A DNA stretch of 64,000 bases, from NCBI GenBank assembly GCA_035289305.1, contig DATDXN010000026.1, positions 8,731-72,730 on the forward strand, read 5' to 3'. Position numbers and translations under genes: made by a program. Every line of letters begins with the position of its first letter. Within the stretch, counting starts at the first letter, position 1. The DNA comes from Patescibacteria group bacterium. GTDB lineage: Bacteria; Patescibacteriota; Microgenomatia; UBA1406; HO2-37-13b. A model generated the notes under the pieces. The model made no database searches. It saw only the letters and a list, made by a program, of their open reading frames with translations, and was not told where the DNA came from. Below are positions 18,034 through 64,000 of the stretch, piece after piece.

Positions 18034-18044
18034 AGCAGCTTATT

Positions 18045-20270: not shown

Positions 20271-20280
20271 ACATCCTTAC

Positions 20281-23435: not shown

Positions 23436-23439
23436 ACTT

Positions 23440-27507: not shown

Positions 27508-27509
27508 AT

Positions 27510-45045: not shown

Positions 45046-45727
45046 CTTCTCTATAGTCTTCCCTGTCATGAATCAAGCTGATCATATTGAACGGGTTATT
45101 CGTGCACATCATGGTATTCTCACAAGACACAAGATTTCATTTGAACTCATCGCTATGGTAAACGGATCACGCGACACAAGCTATCAAGTTTGCAAAAAGA
45201 TTGCCAAAAAACTCGCTTCAGTATCGACATATGAATTAAAGGAGTCCGGTTATGGACTCGGGGTACTCCATGGTCTGAAACAGACAACAGGAAAGTATCT
45301 ATGCTATGCAAATTCAGCTCGTGTGCACAGCGATGAATTGCTCCGCTGCATAAAATTCTTTTTGAAAGATCCAAACACTGTTTTATATGCTGCGCGAAAA
45401 AAAAGAGATGTATGGTATCGAAGATTCAGCTCTCTTATTTATAACGGATTTTGTACATTGTTTATGGGTATTTCTTCATCTGATATTAATGGAACTCCAA
45501 AAATATTCAAAAGAAGCATATATAAAAAACTTAATCTTCAATTCACCAATAGTATGATCGATGTTGAATTTTTTGATAAAATAAAACGTTTCGCTATTCC
45601 CGTCAAGGAATTTCCTATTTATAGGAATACTCGCCATGGGGGAGTATCCACATCAAGATTTTCCACTATATTCAGACTAATAAAAGAAGTAATCCACTAT
45701 TGGTATATGACAAGAATACGGCATTAA
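45029..45727 (+). CDS. glycosyltransferase family 2, short soluble form
   Basis: FSIVFPVMNQADHIERV GT-A start. 232 aa with no C-terminal TM helices. Confidence 0.7.
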   Translation: MKKSVDFSIVFPVMNQADHIERVIRAHHGILTRHKISFELIAMVNGSRDTSYQVCKKIAKKLASVSTYELKESGYGLGVLHGLKQTTGKYLCYANSARVHSDELLRCIKFFLKDPNTVLYAARKKRDVWYRRFSSLIYNGFCTLFMGISSSDINGTPKIFKRSIYKKLNLQFTNSMIDVEFFDKIKRFAIPVKEFPIYRNTRHGGVSTSRFSTIFRLIKEVIHYWYMTRIRH

Positions 45728-48825: not shown

Positions 48826-48839
48826 ATCGCTTCTTTTTA

Positions 48840-49676: not shown

Positions 49677-49726
49677 AGTAAAAAACAAGTAATAGTGTAC
49701 AATATACATAATCTAAAGTCCACTTT

Positions 49727-50689: not shown

Positions 50690-53176
50690 TTATTTTCCTG
50701 ACTTCCACATTTTCAACATGAGAACCAAATCGCCAACATCAACTTCGCCATTGTTATTAACATCTGCAGCTTTTAACATAAGGACCGAGTCGCCAATATC
50801 AATTTTGCCATTATTATTCATATCTACAGTCAGGTTTTCTACATTTTTCCCTACTAGCACTTGAGACACATAGGTAATATCCGAGAAATCCACTTCACCG
50901 TCATTATTTACATCCCCTTCTAGTAAAGATTTTACATTTTTTATATACAACTTCCGGCTATCTGACCAAAGTATTTGATGAGTATCTATGTCTTCGATAC
51001 GAGCTGTGATAGTATATATCCCATCAGGAACCATTGGAGGAATAAGCGAGTAGGATGAAGTGTAAAACGTATCACCACCTGCAACGACAGCCTCCCATTT
51101 CTGATCTTCAACGTCTTTTTTCCATGGATCATCTATCATGACTCGAATATGTCTAACAGGACAAGCATAAGGATTATTATTTTTTATGAATAGAGGAAAT
51201 GTAAGCTCTAAATTATTTGTTCTGTGCGTTCTTTTTAAAATACATAAATCATTATCACAACTTATATCTTCATATAGTCCGTAAAAGCCAGGCACATAGG
51301 CGTATATATAAGCGCCCTTCTCAACAACAAAATTATCATCTACACATATGGGCTCTTTAAACTCAACATCAATTGTCCTATCATCAATATTAGTAATTGT
51401 CAAACTTGCTTTTTCATCTTGGAAACTTTGTCCCCGTCTAAGTGGTTCTGGTACTCCTCCTTTTGCATCTATCGGAACAAGAGTTAAGAGTCGCGTTGTA
51501 AGAGCTTGATTTACCCAATTAATGTGTATCCCATTACTAATTGACGCTCTTGTCTCTAAGTAATAAGTCGGGAAATTGGAGATTCCCGGACGATATATTT
51601 TTGCAACAACAGCATCTGAACTTTCAAGAGGTTGAAGAGTATATCTTCCTGATGAAGAAATGTTAATTATCGACTTGTTGAGCCATTGGAAAACTTCCTT
51701 AAAATAAGCATTAAAGTGACGTAAGGCAAACGATGCGCCCATAACATCAAATGTATTACCGTATTCATTATGTATGCAATTACCGTGCAACCCTCCTTGA
51801 TCACACTCCCAGGAGTTTGCGTGATAGACACCCAGATTATGCCCTAATTCATGGGCAAAAACAAAACTCATATTTGATCCTATTCCAAAAACGCCGAGAG
51901 ATATAAGAATATCACCATCAGAGGTAGAATAGGTGAATTTTCCCACAGTATCTGCCCAACCTCCAGAAGTATTATTATCTACTGCTCCTCCCACCATCAC
52001 TCTATCAAATTGGGAAAAATCAATGTCAGAATCAGCGAGTTTGATAAATTCTGTACTAGAGGTATTAGAAACATCGTCCCATGGATCAACATTCAAATTC
52101 TCCAGCTCATACCATCCATACACCTTACTCTTTTCTTCATCAAGCCACATTTTGCCATACGAGGTTTCTTTAAAGAAGTTTAACACGTCTCCTCGGAAAA
52201 TAATGTCTTCAATCTGTTCTTTGGAGTAATAGGGGATAAACGTACTGCCTTTGCTCCTCACAAGGATGACGGCAACGCGTTGAGGACCTGTTGCGTCGGG
52301 ACTTGCCTCTTTGAGAATTTCTATACTGGTTTGCTCTGCATTCTCCTGCGCATATGTTTGCGGTACCAGATCGAACTTAAAAAAGCCCTGCTGACGGGGA
52401 GTAACACTTGCTGAAGGGACTCTAACTGGAGCCCCACCAGATTTGCGTGGCGGAATTTGAGCGCTGATAGCGTTTCCCATTTTATACCCTCTTATTTTGA
52501 GGATGCTTCCTGAAATAAGATTGGGGAAATCTCCTACAGGATAAAAACCATAGCGCAGGGAAAGATCAGTCTTTGTTTGAATATAATAGTCAAATCGCGA
52601 TTGAGCAGGATTTTCAAAATTATCTATATGCATTACCTGTAGCTCTCCTTGTTCAATACTGATAGGAGACTCAAAATAGGAGGAAAATTCCTCACCAAAG
52701 CGAGCAATTGTGTTGAGAGATAAAACGTTTTCTAGAAAAACAAGAGGGTAAGATTTTATTGCCTCTTCCATAAGGTTTTTTCTATTAGTTACGAGTGTTT
52801 TGCGCTCGTCGATAAGGATATTTTTTATTTCAGTTTCGTTCTGTAACGTTTCATATGCATCTTGCAACTCTAGCAACTGTTGGGTAATACATTTGATTTT
52901 ACGATATAACTCGAGCGCATTTTTATCTCTAAGGATATCGCTGTTTTGAGGAAAATAAGAGAGCTTTGAATCACAACCTTTTGATGTTTTATCCTGTTCT
53001 ATTTCTTTCGCTTTTGAAAGGAGGCTTTTTTGTTGTTGATTGGAGATAATAACAATAGGAAGAAGAATAAGCAAGAAGAGAAGAAACAATAATAAAAGCC
53101 ATCCAGTACGAGATAGACGATTCATAAAAGATAATATAAAAACCAGATTATCAGGTATTAGGAAAGATTTCAACAA
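50690..53176 (-). CDS. membrane-anchored/secreted metzincin-type zinc metalloprotease with three C-terminal dockerin-like repeats
   Basis: N-terminal hydrophobic anchor (GWLLLLFLLFLLILLPIVII). HELGHNLGVYH = HExxHxxGxxH at aa 442-452 (nt 51821-51853). The C-terminus has DVNNDGEVDFSDI, DMNNNGKIDIGDS and DVNNNGEVDVGDL, which are EF-hand-like dockerin segments. The start may be ATG 53125. Confidence 0.7.
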   Translation of the reverse strand: MLKSFLIPDNLVFILSFMNRLSRTGWLLLLFLLFLLILLPIVIISNQQQKSLLSKAKEIEQDKTSKGCDSKLSYFPQNSDILRDKNALELYRKIKCITQQLLELQDAYETLQNETEIKNILIDERKTLVTNRKNLMEEAIKSYPLVFLENVLSLNTIARFGEEFSSYFESPISIEQGELQVMHIDNFENPAQSRFDYYIQTKTDLSLRYGFYPVGDFPNLISGSILKIRGYKMGNAISAQIPPRKSGGAPVRVPSASVTPRQQGFFKFDLVPQTYAQENAEQTSIEILKEASPDATGPQRVAVILVRSKGSTFIPYYSKEQIEDIIFRGDVLNFFKETSYGKMWLDEEKSKVYGWYELENLNVDPWDDVSNTSSTEFIKLADSDIDFSQFDRVMVGGAVDNNTSGGWADTVGKFTYSTSDGDILISLGVFGIGSNMSFVFAHELGHNLGVYHANSWECDQGGLHGNCIHNEYGNTFDVMGASFALRHFNAYFKEVFQWLNKSIINISSSGRYTLQPLESSDAVVAKIYRPGISNFPTYYLETRASISNGIHINWVNQALTTRLLTLVPIDAKGGVPEPLRRGQSFQDEKASLTITNIDDRTIDVEFKEPICVDDNFVVEKGAYIYAYVPGFYGLYEDISCDNDLCILKRTHRTNNLELTFPLFIKNNNPYACPVRHIRVMIDDPWKKDVEDQKWEAVVAGGDTFYTSSYSLIPPMVPDGIYTITARIEDIDTHQILWSDSRKLYIKNVKSLLEGDVNNDGEVDFSDITYVSQVLVGKNVENLTVDMNNNGKIDIGDSVLMLKAADVNNNGEVDVGDLVLMLKMWKSGK
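50711..50914 (-). repeat. in-frame tandem coding repeats (dockerin-like Ca-binding segments)
   Basis: The nucleotide units at ~50717-50770 and ~50776-50830 are visibly similar (catgagaaccaaatcgccaacatcaacttcgccattgttattaacatc vs cataaggaccgagtcgccaatatcaattttgccattattattcatatc). A third, more diverged unit lies upstream. Confidence 0.7.
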
Positions 53177-53189
53177 GTAACTTTGATTT

Positions 53190-54980
53190 TCATATTGAAG
53201 CTTCTTTTTTAGTTTTGATCGGAGGAATAATCATATTTCTGCGAAATTCATCGCGGGGTAAAAGTGGGAAAAGATCTTCAATGGGACTGCCAAATGAAAG
53301 TTTGGGAATGATTTTTTGGTCATCATTAAGGTATACATCACAAAGCACCGGTCCTCTGTGCGAAAGAACTTCTTTTATTTTTTTTGACAAATGAGTATGT
53401 GAACGAATAGAAACAGATTTTATTCCATATGCTTGAGCAATCTTTATAAAATCAGGACAAGAGTAACCCTTTCCCGTCGCCTCAAATCTTGAATCTAAAT
53501 ACATTTCCTGGAACTGTTTAATAATGCCATATCCATGATTATTAAGGATAAAAATTTTTACCGGGAGTTTATGGTAAACCAATGTTTGAAGCTCTTGGAT
53601 GTTTATTTGAAAACCCCCATCTCCATTTATACAAATTATTTCCTTTTTCCCTCGAGCAAAAGATGCACCAATTGCTGCTGGAAAGGAATATCCCATTGGA
53701 GAATTACCAAAGGCAGAAAAAAGCCTTTGTCCCTGTTTTAATTCAAACCCCTGCATAATCCATGTTAGAGTTGCGCCAGTATCGGGAATAACGATTGCAT
53801 CATTCTTTAATTCTTTCGATAAAACTTGAGCAAATACATAAGGATTTACATATTTTTTTTCTTCATAATATTGGAGAAGAACCGTTGGATATTTTTCTCT
53901 CCACGTTGCACAGTGTTTAATCCATTCAACAGTACGTGATTTATTTATCGCAGGAAATTCTTTAATGAATGCTCGTAGGAATTCTTTTGCATCCGCTTGT
54001 ATTGATACTGCAGGAGTTAAACCTCTGCGTTTATCAAGCTCGGTCTGGTCGATATCAATCATAACTATTTTAGCGGCCCGCGCGTACGTCTCTGGTTTCC
54101 CCCCTGTTTGACGTGTATCAAGTCGTGATCCGATACTAATCAGAAGATCACAATTCTGCACCGCAAAATTCGCTCCTCTTTCCCCATACACACCATGTGT
54201 ACCAATAAACAAAGAATGATTGTGAGCAAAAAGATCATAACCACTCCATGAATTGACCACCGGAATGCCTGTCAGCTTCACCATCTGATGAATTTCGTTA
54301 ACCGCACCAGCCAGTCTGATTCCACCACCGGCTAAGATAAGGGGACGTTTTGATTGTGCAATAAGCGTTAGTACCTTTTCTATTTTTGTTTTAAGTATTA
54401 ATCCAGTATCTTTATATTGTTTTTCTTTTGGGGGGATAAATTTTTTAAGTGTTGAACTTTTTATTTCTGTTTTTTGAAGATCCAAGGGGATATCAATGAG
54501 AACCGGTCCGGGGCGTCCAGTTTTTGCAATATAAACAGCCTTTTCTAGTAGAAAACGAGTATCTTCTGCACGGTCAATCTTAACAGCAAATTTCGTAATT
54601 GGGCGAACTATATCAACAATTTCTGTTTCCTGAAAACCAACTTGCCGAACCTTTGAGATACTTTTTTGTTCGTATGTATTGACCTGTCCGGTAATGAAAA
54701 GCGTTGGAATTGAATCAAACCACGCACAACAGATGCCGGTAATTAAATTTGTTGCACCGGGACCAGATGTTGTCATTGCCACTCCAAGTCCTGGACCAAC
54801 ACGAGCATAGCTTTCTGCCATCATTGCTCCTGCCTGTTCGTGAGCAACACAGATATATTCAATATCATGTCTTTTTGAAAATGCATCCACTGCAAATGCA
54901 ATAGCACCTCCGACCATTAAGAAAACATGCTTTACTTTTTGCAAAACAAGATAATCAAGAATATAATCTGCTACTTTCAT
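53190..54980 (-). CDS. ThDP-dependent enzyme, acetolactate synthase large-subunit-like (copy 1)
   Basis: 596 aa with TTSGPGATNL, a central domain, and the ThDP motif GDGGFQINIQEL...ILNNHGYG. The C-terminal tail is PIEDLFPLLPRDEFRRNMIIPP. No small regulatory subunit or other ilv genes are nearby. Confidence 0.8.
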   Translation of the reverse strand: MKVADYILDYLVLQKVKHVFLMVGGAIAFAVDAFSKRHDIEYICVAHEQAGAMMAESYARVGPGLGVAMTTSGPGATNLITGICCAWFDSIPTLFITGQVNTYEQKSISKVRQVGFQETEIVDIVRPITKFAVKIDRAEDTRFLLEKAVYIAKTGRPGPVLIDIPLDLQKTEIKSSTLKKFIPPKEKQYKDTGLILKTKIEKVLTLIAQSKRPLILAGGGIRLAGAVNEIHQMVKLTGIPVVNSWSGYDLFAHNHSLFIGTHGVYGERGANFAVQNCDLLISIGSRLDTRQTGGKPETYARAAKIVMIDIDQTELDKRRGLTPAVSIQADAKEFLRAFIKEFPAINKSRTVEWIKHCATWREKYPTVLLQYYEEKKYVNPYVFAQVLSKELKNDAIVIPDTGATLTWIMQGFELKQGQRLFSAFGNSPMGYSFPAAIGASFARGKKEIICINGDGGFQINIQELQTLVYHKLPVKIFILNNHGYGIIKQFQEMYLDSRFEATGKGYSCPDFIKIAQAYGIKSVSIRSHTHLSKKIKEVLSHRGPVLCDVYLNDDQKIIPKLSFGSPIEDLFPLLPRDEFRRNMIIPPIKTKKEASI

Positions 54981-55038
54981 ACAAGGTAATAAATACTATA
55001 CCATATTACAAAAAAGTGCGTAGCACATTATTTCATTG

Positions 55039-55986
55039 CTACTTTTTACTCTTTCCGATAATTTCATCGACAATATACACAGGTCGGGATTTCGTCTCCT
55101 CAACAATGACCTGAATATATTTACCTATGACACTAATAGCCAGAAGCTGAATCCCGCCAAAAAAAACAATAGCCAACATTAGGGGAATTGACGCATTTAT
55201 TGGATTTCCTATCACTAAAACGGTGAAAAGATACATAAGAAAGAAAGCAAAAGAAAGAAAAACGAGGATAAATCCTCCATAAATCATGGTATCCAAAACT
55301 AGATATGAAAATCCAAAAAGTCCACGCTCGGCATGTTTAATGTAATCAATAAAACTATAAGAACTTTCTCCTTTGACTCTCTCTCGTCTCTCGTAAACAA
55401 TATAATCTGTTTTAAAACCAATCCATGCCCTCAATCCCCTAAAAAAACGATATTTCTCAGGCAATGCTTTAAGCGCATTTAAAGACTTTCTATCTAATAG
55501 ACATAGTCCAGAAGCGTTAGTCGGGATATTGATATTGGAAATTTTTTTAAAAACGACATAAAATAATTTTCTCATCACGAACATCAAAAGATTATCTTGG
55601 ATCTTTGGGTGAAGACCAACTACTATATTGTTCCCTTTTTCCCACTTTTCAATAAATTGGGAAATGAGTTCCGGGGGTTCTTGAAAATCAGCAGCTATCC
55701 CTATTACCGCCTCACCAGTTGAATAATCTAAACCGGCCTGAAGAGATGCTTCTGGCCCAAAATTTCTCGAAAGAAATACGCCTGCCACTCGTTTATCTCT
55801 ATGAATAATCTTTTTTATTACATCTTTTGTTCTATCACTGCTTCCGTTATCAGCAAAAACAAACTCGAAGTTATAGTGTTTATTACTGTCGGCAATGATT
55901 TTTAGAGCAAGATACATAGGTTCAACATTTTCTTCTTCATTAAAGCACGGCACCGTGATAGATAGTAATTTTTTAGTGGTGGACAT
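55039..55986 (-). CDS. polyprenyl-phosphate glycosyltransferase, GT2 (GtrB/ArnC-like), copy 3
   Basis: SITVPCFNEEENV, GIAADFQEPPELI, and two C-terminal TM helices followed by VEETKSRPVYIV. Confidence 0.8.
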   Translation of the reverse strand: MSTTKKLLSITVPCFNEEENVEPMYLALKIIADSNKHYNFEFVFADNGSSDRTKDVIKKIIHRDKRVAGVFLSRNFGPEASLQAGLDYSTGEAVIGIAADFQEPPELISQFIEKWEKGNNIVVGLHPKIQDNLLMFVMRKLFYVVFKKISNINIPTNASGLCLLDRKSLNALKALPEKYRFFRGLRAWIGFKTDYIVYERRERVKGESSYSFIDYIKHAERGLFGFSYLVLDTMIYGGFILVFLSFAFFLMYLFTVLVIGNPINASIPLMLAIVFFGGIQLLAISVIGKYIQVIVEETKSRPVYIVDEIIGKSKK

Positions 55987-57124
55987 CTTTTTTTAAAGAT
56001 ATAAACGCATAACAAACTGTATCATATATAAATTGTCCATAATGACGAAGATAAAAAGAATAGTTTGGACCATATTTCTTAATAAGAAGTGGGATTCTCC
56101 AAAGATCTGTTGATTTATGGTAAATGCAGATAGCTAATGTGGGGAGATGTGCCGTGATAGTTTTTTTTGCTCCCCGTAAAACATCTTCTTCTGCTCCCTC
56201 AATATCCAACTTAATGAGAGTTGTCCTCTTTTTGCGGAAGAATTTATCCAAAGATATCGCTTTGATTGTTGAAACTGACTCTGTTGTAATTCGAGATCCC
56301 AAAGTAGCATCGTTTGTAAACGCAAGGTATGTTTCTTTTTTCGCCAGCGCATAAGGATAAATCTTAATTCTTTTATCTTTCCATTTCTTTATATTTCGTT
56401 TTAATTTTTTAAATTGATATCGATCTGGTTCAAAAGCATAAATCGCAACGTAATTATCGCTTGTTACTTTCTTAAATTTTTTAACGGTATCACCGTCATA
56501 CGCGCCACCATCAATAAGAATTTCTGTTTGATTTAAATTGATCAACTTCTTATCAAAATATTCCTTTTCTTGCGGTTGTTTTATTTTTTTTATACATTTT
56601 CTATCTAAAAATAATCTATATTTGATCAATTCCAAAAAAGTCTTTCTTGACATTTTATCTTTAAACAAGTCGAAACAGGCTAAAATTTTATCTTTATCCC
56701 GGAATATATCATCGAGTGAGTTTTGCCAATAGGGATTAGTGAATTTTCTCGGATACAGAGTGCAAAAAAACGAATGTGGCCATATTCGTGCAAATCCGAT
56801 TTTTCTTAATTGATTTAATATTTCCTCATCATAAATTGAGGTTATAATAATCTGTATATCTTTGGGAAAACGCATTAACTCTGAAATGGAAATAATATCT
56901 TTGCCATCTAATTTTTTACCACTTTTTGCTTGATTGTTATCAACAAAAGCCAAAACGTTTATTTTATTTTTTTTGCATAAATGAAGATAAATCTTGCCCA
57001 TCTGCGCGGCTCCGAATAAAATCACTGGTTTTTTAAAGTGAAAAAAACCAAAATTACTTTGCAAAAGATCAGCATAATAATTCCTTGGTTTATGAAGTAA
57101 TATTTCTAGATTGTTTTTTTCCAC
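55973..57124 (-). CDS. FkbM family methyltransferase with N-terminal Rossmann-like domain
   Basis: LIDGGAYDGDT and LIKLDIEGAEEDVL are FkbM-family blocks. The N-terminus has ILFGAAQMGKIYLHL...AFVDNN. Confidence 0.75.
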   Translation of the reverse strand: MEKNNLEILLHKPRNYYADLLQSNFGFFHFKKPVILFGAAQMGKIYLHLCKKNKINVLAFVDNNQAKSGKKLDGKDIISISELMRFPKDIQIIITSIYDEEILNQLRKIGFARIWPHSFFCTLYPRKFTNPYWQNSLDDIFRDKDKILACFDLFKDKMSRKTFLELIKYRLFLDRKCIKKIKQPQEKEYFDKKLINLNQTEILIDGGAYDGDTVKKFKKVTSDNYVAIYAFEPDRYQFKKLKRNIKKWKDKRIKIYPYALAKKETYLAFTNDATLGSRITTESVSTIKAISLDKFFRKKRTTLIKLDIEGAEEDVLRGAKKTITAHLPTLAICIYHKSTDLWRIPLLIKKYGPNYSFYLRHYGQFIYDTVCYAFISLKKDVHH

Positions 57125-57126
57125 GA

Positions 57127-58176
57127 CTAAAAAGTAATAATTTTATTTTTTAATTTTTTTGATTTTATTTCATTGATAATCTCATCTTTAAATTTGAATG
57201 AGGATATAAGTATGGGTTGGGGATAAGAAACTAATTCGTTTGGAGATATAACCTTAATATTTTCAAAATTTTTCTCTATTATTTTGGCATTTCTGTCAAC
57301 AAGTATAAAGATTTTTTTTCGAAGACTTGATGTATACAAAAGTCGTTTCGTCAATGCTCCCGCACCCCAAACGATAGTTTTCTTCGGTAGTTTATCAACT
57401 TTTTTCTGAATTTTATTAAGCTTTTGATTTGATAATTTTATGTATTTTCTGACAGAATTTTTCAAGCTGCCCGTTTTTTTCCAGACAGAGTAGATAACTA
57501 TATGATTAGCCTCAAGATAAATGCAGGTAAAGTCTACGAGAAGTATCTCTAAAAATCGAGGAGAAAAAAAATTTATATGTTCGGGAGAAAATTCATAAAA
57601 CGGCTCTTCAACTTCCTCATAAAATCTGCTTGCGTTTGGGACGCTTATAAAGAATTTTCCTTCTCTAGCAAGTAAAGTAGTTATTTTTTCTATAGATCTT
57701 TTCAACTCTGATAGATGTTCAAGTACTGTGGCTAGAATAATAAAATCAAACTTTTCTCTAGATTTAAACGAGTCAATCGTCTCTGTTTTAACGATAACAT
57801 TATATTGTTTCCTAGCAACTATTCTACACTCTGGCGCCGGATCAACTCCCATAAGATTTTTGTAACCTTTCTTTTTCAAGAGATATAAAAGATGACCTGT
57901 AGAACAACCCACGTCAAGAATCTTATCTGTATAGCGTACATGTTTGGCAATTATTTCAACAGATGTATCGTGAAATTTTTGATCTCTGGTGTATTCATAT
58001 TTGGATAAGTCTTTGTAGTATTGATTGTAATAAGACTGGGGGTTTGCGTTTCTTACAAAAACAAAGCCACAGTTATCACAAGAAACAATTTTGTTACGTA
58101 GAATTTTGGAATATGATTGAACAAATAAAGTCTCGCTGGAGCTACTTGTACAAATTGGGCATTTGTTTGTATTCAT
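57127..58176 (-). CDS. SAM-dependent methyltransferase with the sugar C-methyltransferase (TylC3/NovU-like) three-part architecture
   Basis: N-terminal Zn ribbon CPIC...CDNC, motif I ILDVGCSTGHLL, and a C-terminal Rossmann-like segment IVWGAGALTKRLLY...VDRNAKIIEKNFENIKVISPNEL that resembles the C-methyltransferase C-terminal domain. Confidence 0.55.
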   Translation of the reverse strand: MNTNKCPICTSSSSETLFVQSYSKILRNKIVSCDNCGFVFVRNANPQSYYNQYYKDLSKYEYTRDQKFHDTSVEIIAKHVRYTDKILDVGCSTGHLLYLLKKKGYKNLMGVDPAPECRIVARKQYNVIVKTETIDSFKSREKFDFIILATVLEHLSELKRSIEKITTLLAREGKFFISVPNASRFYEEVEEPFYEFSPEHINFFSPRFLEILLVDFTCIYLEANHIVIYSVWKKTGSLKNSVRKYIKLSNQKLNKIQKKVDKLPKKTIVWGAGALTKRLLYTSSLRKKIFILVDRNAKIIEKNFENIKVISPNELVSYPQPILISSFKFKDEIINEIKSKKLKNKIITF

Positions 58177-59045
58177 TTTGTTAATTTGATGGCAGAAATA
58201 TTCCGTCTATACCAATTATAAAGTGAGCGAAGCGATACGTCAAAAGGCGTGAATCTGAAATGTCCTAACTCTTTCATAAGCTGAATATTGTTACAGGTGT
58301 ATTCATTATTTAACCCAGAGTTTTTGACGATAATTTGACTTTTATGCGTAGCAATATCATTTATTTTTTTAGCGATAGACAAAAGGTTTATTTTTCTGCC
58401 TGTTCCTATGTTATAAAATTTATGTTTTATGGCACGATGTATAAAATGTTCAATAATTTTTATAAAATCATTGATATATACATAATCAAAGTAAACGTTT
58501 TGATTGATCTTTATTGGCTGTCCAAGTAAATTCAAACAGATCGCATTTGATATAAACCGATAATGGTAATCCTCGTATTTACCAAACATTCCAAATATCC
58601 GCAAAGAAACAATATTATCCATATTTTCTATATATTTTGAACACAAATATTTAAAAAAACCGTAGTCGTCTTGAGGGACTCTTTTATCGAAGTCTTTTTC
58701 TTTAACTTTTTTGATCGGCTTCGTTTTATCATATTCGGCTCCTGAACCAAAATAGATTATTTTTTTAACGTGTTTCCTGTTTTTGATAATGTTAAAAAAA
58801 ATTCTTAAGTTATTTTTTAAAGAATCTTTTTCATATTCTTCAGTTCTACTTCCTCCAACTACTGCTGCATGTATGACAAGATCGATTGTGTTGTGGAATT
58901 TAAAATATGATAGAGTAGCAACGTCATCAGCTAAATCAAGTTCAGCATGTTTCGGTGCAAGAATATGGTATTTGTTCCCAAGTTGTTCGATGATGTTTTT
59001 TCCAATAAATCCACTTCCACCTGTCAGCAAAATCTTTTTTTTCAT
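58173..59045 (-). CDS. NAD(P)-dependent epimerase/reductase (extended SDR)
   Basis: ILLTGGSGFIGKNI and YLCSK (YxxxK). Overlaps both neighbours by 4 nt. Confidence 0.8.
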   Translation of the reverse strand: MKKKILLTGGSGFIGKNIIEQLGNKYHILAPKHAELDLADDVATLSYFKFHNTIDLVIHAAVVGGSRTEEYEKDSLKNNLRIFFNIIKNRKHVKKIIYFGSGAEYDKTKPIKKVKEKDFDKRVPQDDYGFFKYLCSKYIENMDNIVSLRIFGMFGKYEDYHYRFISNAICLNLLGQPIKINQNVYFDYVYINDFIKIIEHFIHRAIKHKFYNIGTGRKINLLSIAKKINDIATHKSQIIVKNSGLNNEYTCNNIQLMKELGHFRFTPFDVSLRSLYNWYRRNISAIKLTK

Positions 59046-60865
59046 ACACCATCTGATAAAGGAATAATCATATTCTCCTCTAATTCTTTTCGACTCAAAA
59101 ATGGAGCCATATCTTCAAGCGGTCGGGAAACAAACGATCCGTCTGGTAATTTCATAGATGCAGCCTTGGGCCAAAAGCCCTGATCTGGCGAAACCATAAT
59201 TTCACATAAAATTAGACCTCTACGTGAGAGAACCTTTTTTATTTTTCGTTCCATCTCTGAATGATTGCTAATTCTTTCAGTTGCAATACCATAAGCTTTC
59301 GCAATCTTTATTATATTGGGCCAAGAAACACCACTATCAGTACTTGTCGCAACGAACCTTCCTTCGAATAAACCCTTTTGAGTTAGGCGAATTGATACAT
59401 ACCCGGCATTATTATAAATAAATAATTTTATTGGAAGTTTATTATGGACAACTGTCTGTAGTTCTTGTAGGTTAAGTTGAATACTCCCATCACCTTCCAA
59501 ACAAATAGTTTTCTTTTTACCACGAGCAAAACACATCCCTATTGCCGCAGGCAATCCATATCCCATCGGCGCCGAACCAGAACTCGTCAGAATCCTTGTT
59601 CCTTGCGGAAAATCTAATGCCTGGTACGTACATATTGAAGCGGTAGCATTGGCGAGAGCTAAACAATCTGTCGGTTTTATGTATCTTGACAATACTTCGA
59701 TAAAACAGTATGGGTTGACATATTTTTTTTCCTCCCAGTATTCCGGTAAAACAACTGGATATTTCTTTTTCCATTCCTGAACTCGTTTCAACCAACCATC
59801 AATTTGAAAATTCGTGGATTTTCTCTTTATCTGATTAATCGTTTCAATGATAAAATCTTTAGCGTCATAATTGATCTTCTGGTCTATTTTGAGAGTGTTT
59901 TTATTCATCTCCTCTTTATCAATATCAACCATGATTTTATAGGCAGCTCTCGCAAAAGAAGAAAAATTGAAACCTATCATTCTGATATTTAATCTCGAGC
60001 CTATGATGAGTAATAAGTCTGAATTTTGGAGGGTAAAATTAGCCGCTCGCTGCCCTATGGTCCCTGGTTTTCCAGCTGAATAATGATTTTTCGGCGAGAC
60101 AATATCCATACCGGCAAAACCGGTGAGAACGGGAATCTTTAAGATTTTAATCAATGTAAGAAACTCATTTACTACTCCAGCGTATCTGACCCCATTTCCA
60201 ACAAAAACCACCGGTCGTTTAGCTGATTTCAGCTTATCAATGACATGGGAGACAAGTTGTTTTAATTTTCCTTTGTCTGTTTCATACGGTGGTTTTATTT
60301 CGGAAGGATCAAATTTCCTCAATTTTTTTTCATCAATGTATGAACCTTGTATGTCAAGCGGGATGTCAATCCAAACTGGACTTTGTCTACCGGTAGTTGC
60401 CAAGTAAACTGCTTTTTCCAAGTGGTAGCGTATATCGTATGGATCCATCACCATTACTGCATATTTAGTGATGGGTTTTATAATATCAATGATATTTATT
60501 TCTTGATCTCCCATCTGACGAAGTTTTTTTCCGGCCCCTATGGTCTCTCTTCTGATTTGTCCTGAAATAATTAACATCGGTACGGAGTCTAGCCAAGCAC
60601 CCATAACTCCGGTCACGGCGTTTGTGCCGCCCGGCCCTGTCGTGACAATACAGGCTCCGATTTTGCCAGAGGTCCTTGCATAACCTTCCGCAGCTATCGC
60701 ACAGGCTTGTTCATGATGATTACAGACAAATTGCAGTCTCTTAGCTTTTCCTATAGAATCAATCAAGTGTATACATCCCCCCCCAGATATGAGAAAAACA
60801 TCCGTCACGCCAAGTCTTTCAATAAATTCAATAACGTAATCGGAAACTTTAATTTTATTCTTCAT
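59042..60865 (-). CDS. ThDP-dependent enzyme, acetolactate synthase large-subunit-like (copy 2)
   Basis: TTGPGGTNAV, GDGSIQLNLQEL...IYNNAGYV, and the tail PLEDMAPFLSRKELEENMIIPL shared with copy 1. The start at ATG 60865 (MKNKIKVSDYV...) is preferred over 60919. Confidence 0.8.
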   Translation of the reverse strand: MKNKIKVSDYVIEFIERLGVTDVFLISGGGCIHLIDSIGKAKRLQFVCNHHEQACAIAAEGYARTSGKIGACIVTTGPGGTNAVTGVMGAWLDSVPMLIISGQIRRETIGAGKKLRQMGDQEINIIDIIKPITKYAVMVMDPYDIRYHLEKAVYLATTGRQSPVWIDIPLDIQGSYIDEKKLRKFDPSEIKPPYETDKGKLKQLVSHVIDKLKSAKRPVVFVGNGVRYAGVVNEFLTLIKILKIPVLTGFAGMDIVSPKNHYSAGKPGTIGQRAANFTLQNSDLLLIIGSRLNIRMIGFNFSSFARAAYKIMVDIDKEEMNKNTLKIDQKINYDAKDFIIETINQIKRKSTNFQIDGWLKRVQEWKKKYPVVLPEYWEEKKYVNPYCFIEVLSRYIKPTDCLALANATASICTYQALDFPQGTRILTSSGSAPMGYGLPAAIGMCFARGKKKTICLEGDGSIQLNLQELQTVVHNKLPIKLFIYNNAGYVSIRLTQKGLFEGRFVATSTDSGVSWPNIIKIAKAYGIATERISNHSEMERKIKKVLSRRGLILCEIMVSPDQGFWPKAASMKLPDGSFVSRPLEDMAPFLSRKELEENMIIPLSDGV

Positions 60866-60920: not shown

Positions 60921-61859
60921 ATGAACCGTAAAGAAAAGCTTACTCAACAAAAACTTGAGGAGATAAAATTGAAATTAATGCTCATTGCCACGGATTATGA
61001 TGAAACGTTGAGAAGTAGAGTTTACACGGATTTTAATGACGACCGAGCCATCGATTTAATTAAAAAAATTCTCACTCATCATGCTCTCCTCATAATCACA
61101 GCCAGAGGAGCTACCATTATCAAAATTCTATTACCTCATTTTGGCCGAAATGCTAAACAGGTACCGCGACACAGATTTTTTTTGGGTACAGGCAATGGAA
61201 GAATACTCTATGAAGTAATAAACAAACATCTCAAAGAAATCTATAATCACGGTCTTACCGCCTTAGATGTAAAATCGATATTGGAAGTTTATGAAGAAGT
61301 ATTTGATGGATTGAAAATTAAAAAAAAAGAGCTTCTTCCAAAGGGACTAAAAACATACCAATCAATCATCTTGCAATTGAGGAATGATCGTATACCCCGT
61401 CAAATTTTCAAGCAGTGTTTTAAATACAATGGTGGAGTTTTTACTGAAGAAGCTAAGGTTGGACTCGTTCAAATCAAAGATCAAACGAGAAATAATAAGC
61501 TCATTTCTCATCTATCCCATTCTCTAGACAAAAAGCATCCAAATAAGTTTCAGGTGATCAGGGGAGATATTGATATTCATATCGTCAAACAATTGCCCGA
61601 AGATGGGAAAGTAACTGCGACAAAAAAAGTCATAGATTTGCTTGCTGTTAAATTAGGTCAAGTTGCTGTTTTTGGAGATTTGCCCAATGGAAATGACAAA
61701 GAAATTCTGACGAGTTTCCCCTTTAGTTTTACCAACGCTATAGATTTCTATAGAGAAAAAACAGAACCTACATCTTCTCCTTTTCTTTTACCAGGAGCAT
61801 TAGAATCTCCTATAGGCAGTGTACACAAAGCGATCCATTTCTTACTAAATGATACATAG
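60921..61859 (+). CDS. HAD superfamily phosphatase, type IIB-like
   Basis: Motif I LIATDYDETL (DxDxT) and motif IV VFGDLPNGNDKEIL, with a large cap insertion. 312 aa. Confidence 0.65.
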   Translation: MNRKEKLTQQKLEEIKLKLMLIATDYDETLRSRVYTDFNDDRAIDLIKKILTHHALLIITARGATIIKILLPHFGRNAKQVPRHRFFLGTGNGRILYEVINKHLKEIYNHGLTALDVKSILEVYEEVFDGLKIKKKELLPKGLKTYQSIILQLRNDRIPRQIFKQCFKYNGGVFTEEAKVGLVQIKDQTRNNKLISHLSHSLDKKHPNKFQVIRGDIDIHIVKQLPEDGKVTATKKVIDLLAVKLGQVAVFGDLPNGNDKEILTSFPFSFTNAIDFYREKTEPTSSPFLLPGALESPIGSVHKAIHFLLNDT

Positions 61860-61893
61860 ATATTTATACTTGATTTTTTTAGCAAGATTTACT

Positions 61894-63096
61894 ATGATTC
61901 TTCCTACCATCTCCATGAATCAAAACACAATTTTTGAAGACTTGTTTGTTCTTGAGTTGGCCAACAATCATTGGGGGAGTCTGAAACGGGGACTCAAGAT
62001 TATTAATGATTTTGCCAAGATTGTCCGCTTCAACAATGTCCGCGCTGCAATAAAACTTCAGTTTCGAGACGTAGATAATTTCATTCATAAACACTATCGC
62101 AATCGTAGTGATGTCCGCTACATCAAAAAAACAATCGCAACAAAAATGTCTGATGAAGATTTTGCCATTTTGGTCAGAGCCATAAAAAAAAGCGGCTGTA
62201 TACCGATGGCGACTCCTTTTGACGAACGGTCAGTAGAATTATGTGTCAATCTCGGTCTTGATATGATCAAAATTGCAAGCTCTGATATTAACGACTGGGT
62301 ACTGATTGAAAAAATCGCGACTACTAAAAGACCAGTCATCGTCTCAACTGGAGGATCATCTCTCAAAGATATGGATGATCTGGTAAAATTTTTTGACAAT
62401 AGAAATATTCCCCTTGCCATCAATCATTGTGTTGCTCTCTATCCTTCGGAAGACAGTGAACTGGAGCTTAACCAAATAGATTTTCTCAAAAACCGGTATC
62501 CTCACCATGCCGTCGGCTTTTCCTCTCATGAGTATCACGATTGGAATCGATCAATGCTTATCTCTTATGCAAAAGGCGCACGGACATGGGAGCGACACAT
62601 CGATATTGAGATGGACGGCGTACCTGTCTCGCCGTATTGTTCACTTCCTCATCAGATAGATACGTGGTTTAAGGCGTATCACAAAGCACGAGCAATGTGC
62701 GGAGGAGCTGCCATCAATAAACGTGTTCCTCCTCCACATGAGATCAAGTATTTAGACGAATTAATACGAGGCGTGTATGCAAAAAAAAACATGCCAGAGG
62801 GACACGTATTGTCAGAAAAAGACGTATATTTAGCCATACCGCTTCTTAAGGGACAAATTTCCTGCCGGGAGCTCATGGATGGAGAAGTTTTAATTAAACC
62901 ATGCAAAAAAGATGAACCGATTTTCATCGATATGATTGACAGTCCTTATGCATATAATAAACAACTCAAAAACTTTATTTATGAACGGGGTATAAACGTA
63001 AGCCAACCTGAAGAAACTATAGAAAAAATTTCGCCCTCTGTCAAAAAAAACGGTGAGAGGAAAAGACGCTATAAAACACTTAAATCACACCTTTGA
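61894..63096 (+). CDS. NeuB-family (sialic/ulosonic acid synthase-like) PEP-condensing enzyme with SAF domain
   Basis: FVLELANNHWGSLKRGLKII, AIKLQF, MIKIASSDINDW, PVIVSTGGSSLKDM and a C-terminal SAF-like RGVYAKKNMPEGHVLSEKDV. The start is uncertain: 61849, 61894 or 61915. Confidence 0.75.
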   Translation: MILPTISMNQNTIFEDLFVLELANNHWGSLKRGLKIINDFAKIVRFNNVRAAIKLQFRDVDNFIHKHYRNRSDVRYIKKTIATKMSDEDFAILVRAIKKSGCIPMATPFDERSVELCVNLGLDMIKIASSDINDWVLIEKIATTKRPVIVSTGGSSLKDMDDLVKFFDNRNIPLAINHCVALYPSEDSELELNQIDFLKNRYPHHAVGFSSHEYHDWNRSMLISYAKGARTWERHIDIEMDGVPVSPYCSLPHQIDTWFKAYHKARAMCGGAAINKRVPPPHEIKYLDELIRGVYAKKNMPEGHVLSEKDVYLAIPLLKGQISCRELMDGEVLIKPCKKDEPIFIDMIDSPYAYNKQLKNFIYERGINVSQPEETIEKISPSVKKNGERKRRYKTLKSHL

Positions 63097-63098: not shown

Positions 63099-64000
63099 TC
63101 ACCCACGTATAGATTTTAAGTACCACACATATATTTTATTTATCATATCAAAAAAATCGTGACGAGGTTTCCATCCGACCATTTTTTTTATCTTTGACCA
63201 ATCAAGCGATTGATAGGGAATTTCGTTTTTTGCCGTGTTCAAAATACGATATTTCAGCTTTTTCTTTACTATTTTCTCTATCAATTTCATAAGTTCCAAG
63301 ACTGATAACGTTTCGCGTGAACCAAAATTAAAGGCTTCTCCTTTAACCTTTTCAATATTTTCTGCAAGCGCTATATATCCGGCAACAACGTCTTTGACAT
63401 AGAGATAATCGCGTATGTATTTCCCATTACTGCGTATTTCCAACGTCTCCTGACGTATCAGCGCTTTCATAATGCCGGGAATAATGCGTGAAAAATTCAA
63501 ATCTCCTTCTCCATAAATATTGCCAAAACGCGTGGTAACGGCAGGAACGCCATAGGTTTTGAAGTAAGAGTAGACGATCAAGTCAGCCGCGGACTTTGAT
63601 ACTTCATACGGATGGTCTCCTTTGAGCGCGTCTTGCTCCGTATACTTTTTCTTTCCATGCTTCCCATATGCTTTATCAGAGGAGGCGACAATAACTGCCT
63701 TCACGCACGGGAAGAGCCGAGCACTCTCCAGTACGTTAATGGTCCCGAGAATATTGGAGTACAGTGTTCGTTTGGGATTATGGTAGGCGACGTCAACCAA
63801 TGGTTGAGCGGCCAAATGAAAAATATACTCGATATCAAACTTTGTGACAATGTCAAATACTTTTTCAAAATTGCACACATCAACATCAACCATGGTAACT
63901 TTTTCTTCAAGCTTTTGAGTAAAAAAATAGGAAAGGGGACTTTGCGTTTGAAACGTTGTCACAACATGAACATTTTGCTTCACGAGCGCCTCAACAAGGT
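63099..64000 (-). CDS. extended-SDR NDP-hexose 4,6-dehydratase-like enzyme (CDP-glucose 4,6-dehydratase-like); 5' end outside the window
   Basis: The frame stays open to the window edge (reads ..LVEALVKQNVHVV..). FHLAAQPLV, SSDKAYG, YEVSKSAAD (YxxxK) and GDLNFSRIIPG are present. The AAQPLV and RIIP blocks resemble RfbG-type enzymes. Confidence 0.6.
   Translation of the reverse strand, partial: LVEALVKQNVHVVTTFQTQSPLSYFFTQKLEEKVTMVDVDVCNFEKVFDIVTKFDIEYIFHLAAQPLVDVAYHNPKRTLYSNILGTINVLESARLFPCVKAVIVASSDKAYGKHGKKKYTEQDALKGDHPYEVSKSAADLIVYSYFKTYGVPAVTTRFGNIYGEGDLNFSRIIPGIMKALIRQETLEIRSNGKYIRDYLYVKDVVAGYIALAENIEKVKGEAFNFGSRETLSVLELMKLIEKIVKKKLKYRILNTAKNEIPYQSLDWSKIKKMVGWKPRHDFFDMINKIYVWYLKSIRG

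What the first reader, a model, noticed from the sequence alone, without database searches (positions are those of the whole stretch)
53190..60865. Two ALS-like ThDP enzymes bracketing SDR, C-methyltransferase-like, FkbM and GtrB genes: a yersiniose-like branching route?
The minus-strand order is ALS-like (59042-60865), SDR (58173-59045), Zn-ribbon methyltransferase with C-methyltransferase-like C-domain (57127-58176), FkbM methyltransferase (55973-57124), GtrB-like GT2 (55039-55986), then a second ALS-like enzyme (53190-54980). The first five overlap or abut, with 4-nt overlaps at 59042-59045 and 58173-58176. The two ALS-like proteins share a distinctive tail, P(I/L)ED(L/M)xPxLxRxE(F/L)xxNMIIP, that I do not associate with IlvB. 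In the known yersiniose A pathway an ALS-like ThDP enzyme (YerE) adds a two-carbon branch to a 3,6-dideoxy-4-ketohexose and a reductase (YerF) follows. ALS-like followed by SDR here mirrors that logic, with extra C- and O-methylation capacity.
Basis: inference. Interest (0 to 1): 0.6.

Follow-up and report, generated by a model that had tools for sequence, protein, structure and literature searches.

The report
Branched-sugar gene cassette in an ultrasmall bacterium
The two "acetolactate-synthase-like" genes are most likely not amino-acid enzymes but relatives of known YerE-type enzymes that add a carbon side chain to a nucleotide-linked deoxy-sugar, in a gene cassette shared by many Patescibacteria (the window's own group) and some other bacteria; the enzyme class is known, and this version has some new features.

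Summary
All six genes, the overlaps and the shared tail are as described.

Both ThDP proteins fall below every NCBIfam acetolactate-synthase cutoff. Their best solved relatives are the two structurally characterised YerE-like carboligases, JanthE (8RPH) and PpYerE (5AHK). In a rough tree they group with these, not with IlvB, IlvI or plant AHAS. The tail is a signature of the JanthE-like clade.

The organism is a Patescibacteria MAG. The substrate genes fit the yersiniose logic:
- a CDP-glucose 4,6-dehydratase-like gene at the window end;
- a glucose-1-P cytidylyltransferase-like gene just beyond it;
- a genuine E1/RfbH 3-dehydrase at 45724-46968, with His220 and four Fe-S cysteines kept.

These genes, the SDR and a GtrB-like GT2 accompany the ThDP gene in most related loci from several phyla. 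The Zn-ribbon methyltransferase has the fold and catalytic residues of NDP-sugar C-methyltransferases.

New points:
- a distinct NeuB-like synthase, here with a HAD phosphatase, is almost always linked to ThDP-A-type genes, so the donor may be a longer keto acid than pyruvate;
- the product probably leaves on polyprenyl phosphate.

No E3 reductase was found, the role of ThDP-B is unresolved, and there is no biochemistry. Verdict: interpretation supported; a new variant of a known kind.

The parts
59042..60865 (-). ThDP-A: JanthE/YerE-like ThDP-dependent carboligase (607 aa). Catalytic Glu and GDG...NN motif are intact. Carries the tail PLEDMAPFLSRKELEENMIIP.
   Evidence: Three TPP domains. Below all ALS cutoffs. 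Best PDB match 8RPH JanthE, E 5e-133. Falls in the clade with JanthE. Active-site columns.
58173..59045 (-). Extended SDR (290 aa). Proposed YerF-like reductase of the newly added acyl keto group.
   Evidence: Pfam Epimerase and RmlD_sub_bind. 4-nt overlap with ThDP-A. A homologue accompanies the ThDP gene in 12 of 21 independent related loci, usually adjacent. The function is inferred.
57127..58176 (-). Three-domain methyltransferase: Zn ribbon, class I SAM domain and a C-terminal Rossmann-like domain. NDP-sugar C-methyltransferase-like.
   Evidence: AF2 model with pLDDT 92. The top 18 PDB fold matches are KijD1, MtmC and TcaB9. Profile match to MtmC, E 2e-15. TcaB9 Y76, H181, E224 and H225 are conserved as Y54, H154, E199 and H200.
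55973..57124 (-). FkbM-family methyltransferase. Its N-terminal Rossmann-like domain is homologous to the C-terminal domain of the preceding methyltransferase.
   Evidence: Pfam Methyltransf_21 and TIGR01444. Domain homology E 3e-6. O-methylation is inferred from the family only.
55039..55986 (-). GtrB/PgfS/ArnC-like GT2 with C-terminal TM segments. Proposed polyprenyl-phosphate sugar synthase.
   Evidence: Pfam Glycos_transf_2. NCBIfam PgfS 220 bits and ArnC 110 bits, both below cutoff. TM-like segments at residues 226-290. Homologues in 16 of 21 related loci.
53190..54980 (-). ThDP-B: second YerE-like carboligase (596 aa). It belongs to a separate clade, so far seen only in Patescibacteria and unassigned metagenome contigs. 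Motifs are intact and it carries the same tail.
   Evidence: JanthE E 2e-120; PpYerE E 2e-110. Tree. Orthologues in L007, L008 and L009 sit with their own keto-acid supply genes.
60921..61859 (+). HAD-IIB-like hydrolase, divergent from ThDP-A and overlapping the NeuB-like gene. Proposed phosphatase in donor supply.
   Evidence: Weak Pfam and NCBIfam HAD-IIB matches. Homologues at 27-59% lie next to NeuB-like genes in other loci.
61849..63096 (+). NeuB-family synthase of a distinct clade (415 aa). Proposed maker of a 3-deoxy-2-keto acid that serves as the ThDP-A donor.
   Evidence: Pfam NeuB; far below the NeuB and PseI cutoffs. Best PDB match 3G8R at E 2e-60, against 4e-21 or weaker for the named sialic- and pseudaminic-acid synthases. 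Linked to ThDP-A-type genes in 14 of 16 metagenome loci longer than 4 kb.
63099..64000 (-). CDP-glucose 4,6-dehydratase-like gene, cut by the window end. The cytidylyltransferase-like gene lies just beyond.
   Evidence: TIGR02622 is the best hit. The reading frame is open to base 64000. The full 317-aa gene and a 259-aa gene best matching glucose-1-P cytidylyltransferase are on the extended contig L010.
45724..46968 (-). E1/RfbH: CDP-6-deoxy-L-threo-D-glycero-4-hexulose 3-dehydrase. Supplies the 3,6-dideoxy-4-keto acceptor.
   Evidence: NF011936 RfbH 646 bits against a cutoff of 423. PDB 3BCX E 7e-146. His220 and Cys193, 251, 253 and 261 are conserved.

Best explanation
The region is a cassette for making a C-branched (4-C-acyl, then 4-C-hydroxyalkyl) 3,6-dideoxyhexose, in a Patescibacteria genome.

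Proposed route:
1. A cytidylyltransferase and a 4,6-dehydratase (window end and just beyond), with the E1/RfbH dehydrase at 45724-46968, make CDP-4-keto-3,6-dideoxyhexose.
2. ThDP-A, a JanthE/YerE-like carboligase, decarboxylates an alpha-keto acid and adds the resulting acyl unit to the C-4 ketone.
3. The translationally coupled SDR reduces the new side-chain ketone, as YerF does.
4. The TcaB9-like C-methyltransferase and the FkbM methyltransferase decorate the nucleotide sugar.
5. The GtrB-like GT2 moves the finished sugar onto polyprenyl phosphate, for use outside the membrane by the many GT-C-like proteins in the island.

The donor for ThDP-A is probably not pyruvate. It is more likely a 3-deoxy-2-keto acid made by the divergently transcribed NeuB-like synthase and HAD phosphatase.

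ThDP-B is a second carboligase of the same kind. It probably draws on the same keto-sugar pool with another donor.

What is shown: family placement, motif integrity, gene order, co-occurrence, and the fold of the methyltransferase. What is inferred: every substrate and every reaction step.
For: **Family placement**
- Both ThDP proteins fall below all ALS cutoffs.
- Their best solved relatives are JanthE and PpYerE.
- JanthE, ErwE and YpYerE catalyse aldehyde-ketone cross-coupling in vitro, and YerE uses CDP-3,6-dideoxy-4-keto-glucose (PMC9306805, PMC12247030, PMC12188165).
- The tree separates them from AHAS.
- The catalytic Glu and GDG motif are intact. AHAS Trp574 is replaced. A Lys or Arg specific to YerE-like enzymes (JanthE K567) is present.

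**Acceptor genes**
- RfbH passes its equivalog cutoff and keeps the E1 His and Fe-S cysteines.
- The best hits for the neighbouring genes are glucose-1-P cytidylyltransferase and CDP-glucose dehydratase.

**Co-occurrence**
- Among 21 independent related loci (Patescibacteria, Acidobacteriota, Clostridia, Gammaproteobacteria, Bacteriovoracia), 17 have an RfbH-like gene (16 at 46% identity or more), 14 an RfbF-like gene, 16 the GtrB-like GT2 and 12 the SDR.

**Donor supply**
- Neighbours vary but are always keto-acid makers: NeuB-like with HAD; canonical NeuB with a KdsC-like phosphatase; HpcH/HpaI aldolase; PanB; or Asp kinase, ASADH, homoserine DH and an aminotransferase. This matches the published 'unifying scheme' of aldolase, ThDP enzyme and reductase.
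- The NeuB-like clade is linked to a ThDP gene in 14 of 16 loci longer than 4 kb.
- No CMP-sugar synthetase accompanies it.

**Methyltransferase**
- It has the C-methyltransferase fold and catalytic residues.
Against: - There is no biochemical or glycan-structure evidence for any Patescibacteria.
- No E3 reductase, the usual partner of E1, is found in the window or in the flanks of related loci.
- The RfbF-like and RfbG-like genes score below their NCBIfam cutoffs (264 against 300; 202 against 278), so the nucleotide could differ.
- The E1 gene is 6 kb away, in an operon with a split transketolase. It may serve that module instead, or as well.
- Identity to JanthE is only 36-38%.
- Some predicted YerE-like enzymes (MygE, RhopE, SpirE) have not accepted ketones in vitro (PMC12247030).
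- I know of no GtrB-type enzyme shown to use a CDP-sugar.
- ThDP-B has no reductase or donor gene of its own here.
- The NJ tree has no bootstrap, and it used reference sequences rebuilt from printed alignments.
Confidence: 0.6

Rival explanations
1. Literal yersiniose A route. Both ThDP enzymes use pyruvate and install a two-carbon acetyl branch, which the SDR reduces to 1-hydroxyethyl. The NeuB-like and HAD genes then belong to another sugar.
For: YerE, the founding member, uses pyruvate (PMC9306805). JanthE accepts pyruvate (PMC12188165). ThDP-B has no donor-supply gene next to it in this window and resembles PpYerE at active-site columns.
Against: ThDP-A-type genes are almost always next to a keto-acid-forming enzyme. 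ErwE rejects pyruvate (PMC9306805). The A clade has Asp where AHAS and PpYerE have Phe. The NeuB-like gene has no CMP-activating partner.
Confidence: 0.2
2. The ThDP enzymes do not act on the nucleotide sugar. They process a free keto acid, for example by decarboxylating the NeuB-like product to a deoxy-aldose or by making an acyloin. That product is then reduced, methylated and attached as a non-sugar substituent. The CDP-dideoxyhexose is a separate building block of the same glycan.
For: The ThDP superfamily is catalytically versatile. Several predicted YerE-like enzymes showed no ketone acceptance in vitro (PMC12247030). The E1 gene is in another operon. No E3 was found.
Against: Co-occurrence of ThDP with RfbF, RfbG and RfbH across phyla is strong. 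The methyltransferase has the architecture of enzymes that act on NDP-4-keto-sugars. Both methyltransferases carry the same Rossmann-like domain, which in TcaB9-type enzymes is the nucleotide-holding domain by my recollection. The nearest characterised relatives do accept ketones.
Confidence: 0.15
3. They are genuine acetolactate/acetohydroxyacid synthases for branched-chain amino acid synthesis or acetoin formation.
For: The highest-scoring NCBIfam models are ALS large subunits. Some public records call homologues 'acetolactate synthase'.
Against: Scores are below every ALS cutoff. There is no ilvN, ilvC or ilvD among the ORFs of 150 aa or more that were scanned. They lie in a separate clade from IlvB, IlvI and AtAHAS. 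The Trp574 equivalent is lost. They are embedded in, and translationally coupled to, glycan genes.
Confidence: 0.03

Closest known systems
JanthE (Janthinobacterium sp. HH01; PDB 8RPH, 8RPI, 8RPJ), a YerE-like ThDP carboligase
   Same: Best solved relative of both proteins (E 5e-133 and 2e-120, aligned end to end). Shares the C-terminal tail PLEDLSPLIPRDVLEQAMI. Shares Thr at the AHAS Trp574 position with ThDP-A, and Lys567 with both.
   Different: Only 36-38% identical. JanthE has a CDG ThDP motif, whereas the window proteins have the canonical GDG. JanthE V121 is Asp in ThDP-A and Phe in ThDP-B. Its P293 is Arg in both. No physiological substrate for JanthE was found in the papers read.
YerE/YerF of Yersinia pseudotuberculosis (yersiniose A) and PpYerE (PDB 5AHK)
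   Same: The same logic: CDP-4-keto-3,6-dideoxyhexose genes, a ThDP carboligase and a reductase. PpYerE is the second-best solved relative, and ThDP-B is 38% identical to it.
   Different: PpYerE lacks the tail. ThDP-A is only 29% identical to PpYerE. Pyruvate as donor is not indicated for ThDP-A. The product here appears to go to polyprenyl phosphate through a GtrB-like GT2. The YpYerE sequence itself was not compared.
'Unifying scheme' clusters for longer acyl-branched sugars: ErwE/ErwF/ErwI (erwiniose), MMAR_2331-2333 (caryophyllose), MyGE/MygI/MygF (PMC9306805)
   Same: A keto-acid-forming enzyme, a YerE-like enzyme, an NAD(P)H reductase (and sometimes a SAM methyltransferase), with the deoxy-keto-sugar genes. 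Some related loci (L003, L020) carry the same aldolase family, HpcH/HpaI.
   Different: In the window the keto-acid maker would be a NeuB-family, PEP-dependent synthase with a HAD phosphatase, not a pyruvate aldolase. The host is a Patescibacteria cell rather than a Gram-negative bacterium or mycobacterium making LPS or LOS.
TcaB9, KijD1 and MtmC: NDP-sugar C-3 methyltransferases
   Same: The 349-aa methyltransferase shares their three-domain fold and the Tyr, His and Glu-His catalytic residues.
   Different: 13-16% identity. It is about 60 residues shorter. TcaB9 Tyr222 is Ser. The carbon that is methylated is unknown.

Membership tests
Biosynthetic acetolactate synthase large subunit (IlvB/IlvI/IlvG; TIGR00118) | Score at or above the curated equivalog cutoff of 538 bits | tested here: not met
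   474 bits (ThDP-B) and 387 bits (ThDP-A). All other ALS models are also far below cutoff.
Biosynthetic acetolactate synthase large subunit | Groups with IlvB, IlvI and plant AHAS in a tree, and keeps the acceptor-specificity Trp (AtAHAS W574) | tested here: not met
   The NJ tree puts both with JanthE and PpYerE. The W574 column is Thr in A and Phe in B.
Biosynthetic acetolactate synthase large subunit | Genomic partners ilvN/ilvH, ilvC and ilvD | tested here: not met
   None is found among the window ORFs of 150 aa or more that were scanned.
ThDP-dependent decarboxylase superfamily (POX/AHAS-like, three domains) | N, M and C TPP domains, catalytic Glu, GDG-X(n)-NN motif | tested here: met
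   Pfam PF02776, PF00205 and PF02775 in both. Glu and GDG columns are conserved.
YerE-like ketone-accepting carboligases | Closer in sequence to characterised YerE-like enzymes than to any other characterised ThDP family | tested here: met
   The top two PDB sequence matches for both are JanthE and PpYerE. The next best are AHAS. Tree. YpYerE, ErwE, MMAR_2332 and MyGE were not available.
YerE-like ketone-accepting carboligases | Gene cluster with NDP-4-keto-deoxyhexose genes and an NAD(P)H reductase | tested here: met
   RfbF-like, RfbG-like, RfbH and SDR genes are present in the island and in most related loci. No E3 was found.
YerE-like ketone-accepting carboligases | Catalyses addition of a keto-acid-derived acyl anion to a ketone (a keto-sugar) | not testable with these tools
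   Needs an enzyme assay.
YerE-like ketone-accepting carboligases | FAD bound in the middle domain (seen in the JanthE structure) | tested here: inconclusive
   The middle domain is intact. JanthE's FAD-stabilising Y268 is kept in B and is Ile in A. P293 is Arg in both, as in PpYerE and AHAS.
E1 / RfbH CDP-6-deoxy-L-threo-D-glycero-4-hexulose 3-dehydrase | Equivalog score, His in place of the PLP Lys (His220), and four Cys ligands of the 2Fe-2S cluster | tested here: met
   646 bits against a cutoff of 423. His220 and Cys193, 251, 253 and 261 align identically to 3BCX. The residue roles are from my own knowledge of E1.
E1 / RfbH system | Partner reductase E3 (RfbI/AscD) encoded nearby | tested here: not met
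   No ORF with Fer2, FAD_binding_6 or NAD_binding_1 domains is found in the window or in related loci.
NDP-sugar C-methyltransferases (TcaB9/KijD1/MtmC type) | Three-domain fold with a Zn-binding N-domain, and the catalytic residues Tyr76, His181, Glu224 and His225 | tested here: met
   The top 18 Foldseek hits are of this type. The profile alignment to MtmC and TcaB9 conserves Y54, H154, E199 and H200. TcaB9 Y222 is Ser. Pfam Methyltransf_13 and Methyltransf_14 are not significant on the window protein itself.
N-acetylneuraminate / pseudaminate synthase (NeuB, PseI) | Equivalog score | tested here: not met
   114 bits against 400, and 102 bits against 340. Same superfamily, but a distinct clade near PDB 3G8R.
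GtrB/ArnC/PgfS polyprenyl-phosphate glycosyltransferases | GT2 domain followed by C-terminal TM helices; family score | tested here: inconclusive
   The architecture fits. The best models are PgfS and ArnC, but scores of 220 and 110 bits are below the cutoffs of 500 and 529.

The most novel reading that the evidence does not exclude
Patescibacteria, and some Acidobacteriota, feed a NeuB-made ulosonic-type keto acid directly into a YerE-like carboligase without CMP activation. This would hang a long polyhydroxyalkyl chain on a 3,6-dideoxyhexose. One CDP-keto-sugar pool is diversified in this island by four ThDP systems (two YerE-like enzymes and two split transketolases). Each product is exported as a polyprenyl-phosphate sugar and placed on the cell surface by a large family of GT-C-like enzymes. 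That would be a combinatorial surface-sugar system in ultrasmall episymbionts.
Probability: 0.3. Interest if true: 0.65.

Novelty: new variant of a known kind. Interest (0 to 1): 0.45.

Why it matters
Patescibacteria have very small genomes and are thought to live attached to other cells, so what they put on their surface matters. Yet almost nothing is known about their glycans.

This island devotes tens of kilobases to rare-sugar chemistry. The cassette recurs in many Patescibacteria, which suggests that C-branched dideoxy sugars are a common surface feature of the group.

For enzymology, the A and B clades add many natural YerE-like carboligases with varied active sites and apparently varied donors: NeuB products, ketopantoate, and homoserine-derived 4-hydroxy-2-oxobutanoate. 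Such enzymes are sought as catalysts for chiral tertiary alcohols.

It would also give a function to a widespread NeuB-like clade that is known only from a structural-genomics entry.

Tried and rejected
- **Genuine ALS.** Rejected on cutoffs, tree, active-site columns and context.
- **N-terminally truncated 4,6-dehydratase (pseudogene).** Rejected. The frame is open to the last base of the window, and the full gene is on the extended contig.
- **DegT-family gene as an aminotransferase.** Rejected. It passes the RfbH cutoff and has His, not Lys, at the catalytic position.
- **Promoter and terminator scan of 50-64 kb.** No signal above shuffles (52 against 49 expected), so operon boundaries rest on gene spacing only.
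- **Literature searches.** Looked for Patescibacteria together with branched or dideoxy sugars, and for 'aurantose'. Nothing relevant turned up.
[quoted passage not shown] I cannot say whether NeuB-linked or Patescibacteria clusters were already listed there.
- **Split transketolases.** No further loci were found among those fetched.
- **Direct comparison with YpYerE, YerF, ErwE and ErwF.** Not possible, because the sequences were not obtainable with the tools.

Full report
**1. Observation**

| Gene | Coordinates |
|---|---|
| ThDP-A | 59042-60865 |
| SDR | 58173-59045 |
| Zn-ribbon methyltransferase | 57127-58176 |
| FkbM methyltransferase | 55973-57124 |
| GT2 | 55039-55986 |
| ThDP-B | 53190-54980 |

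- The ThDP-A ORF is open to a TTG at 60919. The ATG at 60865 gives a 607-aa protein identical to a public model.
- The 4-nt overlaps at 59042-59045 and 58173-58176 are real.
- The methyltransferase and FkbM genes are 2 nt apart. FkbM and GT2 overlap by 14 nt. A 58-nt gap precedes ThDP-B.
- Pfam and NCBIfam confirm all domain calls.
- The two ThDP proteins are 43% identical and share the stated tail.

**2. What the ThDP proteins are**

- Both have the three TPP domains, but both score below every NCBIfam acetolactate-synthase cutoff (474 and 387 bits against 538 for TIGR00118).
- Against all PDB sequences, the best match for both is 8RPH (E 5e-133 for A, 2e-120 for B). The second is 5AHK. AHAS entries follow.
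- 8RPH is JanthE, a YerE-like enzyme from Janthinobacterium that couples keto-acid-derived acyl units to ketones (PMC12188165). 5AHK is, from my own recollection, PpYerE. The review PMC12247030 confirms that PpYerE and JanthE are the two YerE-like enzymes with structures.

I built a MAFFT alignment and NJ tree from the two window proteins, 18 homologues from related loci, JanthE, PpYerE and Arabidopsis AHAS (all three rebuilt from the printed alignments), and E. coli IlvB, IlvI and Gcl.
- The AHAS sequences fall in one group.
- PpYerE, the ThDP-B clade, JanthE and the ThDP-A clade fall in the sister group.
- The tail is present across nearly all of the JanthE/A/B clade members and absent from PpYerE, AHAS and Gcl.
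- The tree has no bootstrap support and should be read as rough.

Column checks:

| Column | ThDP-A clade | ThDP-B clade | References |
|---|---|---|---|
| Catalytic Glu and GDG | intact | intact | JanthE has CDG; Gcl lacks the Glu |
| AHAS Trp574 | Thr | Phe | Thr in JanthE, Phe in PpYerE |
| AHAS Met at JanthE K567 | Lys or Arg | Lys | Lys in JanthE, Arg in PpYerE |
| AHAS Phe206 (JanthE hotspot V121) | Asp in most members | Phe | Phe in PpYerE |

FAD binding cannot be judged from sequence.

**3. Organism and context**

The closest homologues are annotated Patescibacteria, Roizmanbacteria, Falkowbacteria and Shapirobacteria.

The window is one large glycan island. It contains:
- three full-length GtrB-like GT2 genes and a shorter one;
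- GT4 and other GT2 genes;
- an ABC-2 exporter;
- at least ten polytopic membrane proteins with a GT-C-like layout.

Three results bear directly on the yersiniose idea.
- **Dehydratase.** The gene at 63099-64000 is best matched by CDP-glucose 4,6-dehydratase. It is simply cut by the window end.
- **Cytidylyltransferase.** On the same contig, extended as L010, the dehydratase is complete. It is preceded by a 259-aa gene whose only strong match is glucose-1-phosphate cytidylyltransferase, full length at 264 bits against a cutoff of 300.
- **E1/RfbH.** The DegT-family gene at 45724-46968 scores 646 bits against a cutoff of 423 for RfbH. It matches the E1 crystal structure 3BCX at E 7e-146. It keeps His220 in place of the aminotransferase Lys, and all four cysteines that I recall as the Fe-S ligands.

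The genes for CDP-4-keto-3,6-dideoxyhexose, the YerE acceptor, are therefore present. The exception is the E3 reductase, which I did not find in the window or in related loci.

**4. Conservation**

I read the gene neighbourhoods of ThDP-A and ThDP-B homologues. I also ran a scan of species-representative genomes and a tblastn census with the window proteins.

Counts for 21 independent loci:

| Accompanying gene | Loci with it |
|---|---|
| RfbH-like | 17 (16 at 46% identity or more) |
| RfbF-like | 14 |
| GtrB-like GT2 | 16 |
| SDR | 12 |

- The loci come from Patescibacteria, Acidobacteriota, Lachnospiraceae and other Eubacteriales, a gammaproteobacterium and a Bacteriovoracia MAG.
- The order ThDP, SDR, methyltransferase and FkbM (either order), GT2 is kept in several Patescibacteria lineages (L001, L005, L013, L033, L034).

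**5. Donor supply**

The published 'unifying scheme' for acyl-branched sugars pairs a YerE-like enzyme with a reductase and with an aldolase that makes a longer keto acid. ErwE even rejects pyruvate (PMC9306805).

The loci here follow that logic, but with varied suppliers:

| Locus or loci | Supplier next to the ThDP gene |
|---|---|
| L003, L020 | HpcH/HpaI aldolase |
| L018 | canonical NeuB with a KdsC/KDN-9-P-phosphatase-like HAD, directly upstream |
| L009 | genuine PanB (354 bits against a cutoff of 272) |
| L007, L008 | aspartate kinase, ASADH, homoserine dehydrogenase and a class I aminotransferase |
| window, L001, L005, L013, L014, L028 | a distinct NeuB-like protein |

- The L007/L008 set would give 4-hydroxy-2-oxobutanoate, which is a known ErwE and MyGE donor.
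- The distinct NeuB-like protein has 3G8R as its best PDB match, at E 2e-60. The named sialic- and pseudaminic-acid synthases match at 4e-21 or weaker.

I then seeded a metagenome scan with that NeuB-like protein.
- It found 27 loci at 59-78% identity.
- Of the 16 longer than 4 kb, 12 carry a ThDP-A-type gene at 45-66% identity and 2 carry a more distant one.
- The 2 exceptions are cut at the contig end where the gene would be expected.
- No CMP-sugar synthetase accompanies the NeuB-like gene in these cassettes.

I therefore think its keto-acid product is consumed directly by ThDP-A. This is inference from linkage.

**6. Tailoring and export**

- An AlphaFold model of the 349-aa methyltransferase (33-sequence alignment, pLDDT 92) has the NDP-sugar C-3 methyltransferases KijD1, MtmC and TcaB9 as its 18 best PDB fold matches, over about 400 columns.
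- Generic class I methyltransferases match only the core.
- A profile of the family hits MtmC at E 2e-15. It aligns invariant Y54, H154, E199 and H200 with TcaB9 Y76, H181, E224 and H225.
- Its C-terminal domain is homologous to the N-terminal domain of the FkbM protein. As I recall, that domain holds the nucleotide in TcaB9-type enzymes, so both methyltransferases probably work on the nucleotide sugar.
- The best NCBIfam matches of the GT2 are PgfS and ArnC, though below their cutoffs, and it has C-terminal TM segments. This points to transfer onto polyprenyl phosphate.

**7. ThDP-B**

Its orthologues elsewhere have their own SDR, donor genes and GT2. In this genome it has none of these and sits between the GT2 and an 828-aa secreted protein. 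A second, more distant ThDP paralogue also flanks the cassette in L032 and L033. Its role here is unresolved. The simplest reading is a parallel branching reaction on the same keto-sugar with a common keto acid.

**8. Comparison and novelty**

[quoted passage not shown] The survey itself and the JanthE paper were not available to me.

Features I did not find in the accessible literature:
- the Patescibacteria host;
- the NeuB-type supplier;
- the consistent GtrB-like exit;
- the co-location with two split transketolase modules, one of them co-operonic with E1.

I rate it a new variant of a known kind, with moderate interest. All substrate assignments remain to be tested.

Noticed in passing
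window 42410-45727 (+) and 45724-49709 (-): There are two split-transketolase pairs. The first (42410-43198 and 43188-44105) is followed by an SDR and a short GT2. The second (48840-49709 and 47890-48825) is followed by a GtrB-like GT2 and the E1/RfbH gene, all overlapping. The review PMC12247030 says the 13 predicted ketone-accepting split transketolases are all from Streptomyces and are uncharacterised. A Patescibacteria split transketolase co-operonic with E1 may be a further branching system on the same keto-sugar.
   Followed up: partly
window 15805-29759, 34276-35823, 37261-41506, 4324-6054: At least ten polytopic membrane proteins, each with 7-13 TM-like segments and most with a soluble C-terminal part of about 250 aa. 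They fall into two paralogue families (30-41% identity within each) and have almost no Pfam hits. The layout is GT-C-like, so they are candidate users of the polyprenyl-phosphate sugars.
   Followed up: partly
L007 2312-7445, L008 2670-7753, L009 11764-12603: ThDP-B-type genes in other Patescibacteria sit beside one of two gene sets. One is aspartate kinase, ASADH, homoserine dehydrogenase and a class I aminotransferase. The other is a genuine PanB. Amino-acid and pantothenate enzymes seem to have been recruited as keto-acid suppliers in organisms that usually lack such pathways.
   Followed up: partly
window 61849-63096 and loci L014, L028, L032-L056: The NeuB-like protein is 59-78% identical across Patescibacteria and Acidobacteriota. 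The adjacent ThDP enzyme is only about 41-47% identical between these groups. This suggests strong constraint or recent transfer of the NeuB-like gene.
   Followed up: no
window 50690-53176 (-): An 828-aa protein with an N-terminal hydrophobic segment, an HELGH metalloprotease-like motif (weak M6/reprolysin hits) and dockerin-type repeats. It starts 13 nt downstream of ThDP-B. It was found only in this genome's own contigs.
   Followed up: no
window and 10-kb flanks of L001-L012: No E3 (RfbI/AscD-type) reductase gene is present, although the E1 homologue keeps its Fe-S cysteines. The electron donor for 3-deoxygenation is unknown.
   Followed up: partly
window 2694-4240; 11037-12564; 31739-32952; 35820-37256: Other genes in the window: an AbiEii-type toxin gene with an upstream partner ORF; an ABC-2 exporter pair; a HAD next to a cytidylyltransferase-like gene; and a flavin amine-oxidase-like gene.
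   Followed up: no
window 56001-58000: G+C drops to 0.31 over the two methyltransferase genes, against 0.36-0.37 in neighbouring windows.
   Followed up: no
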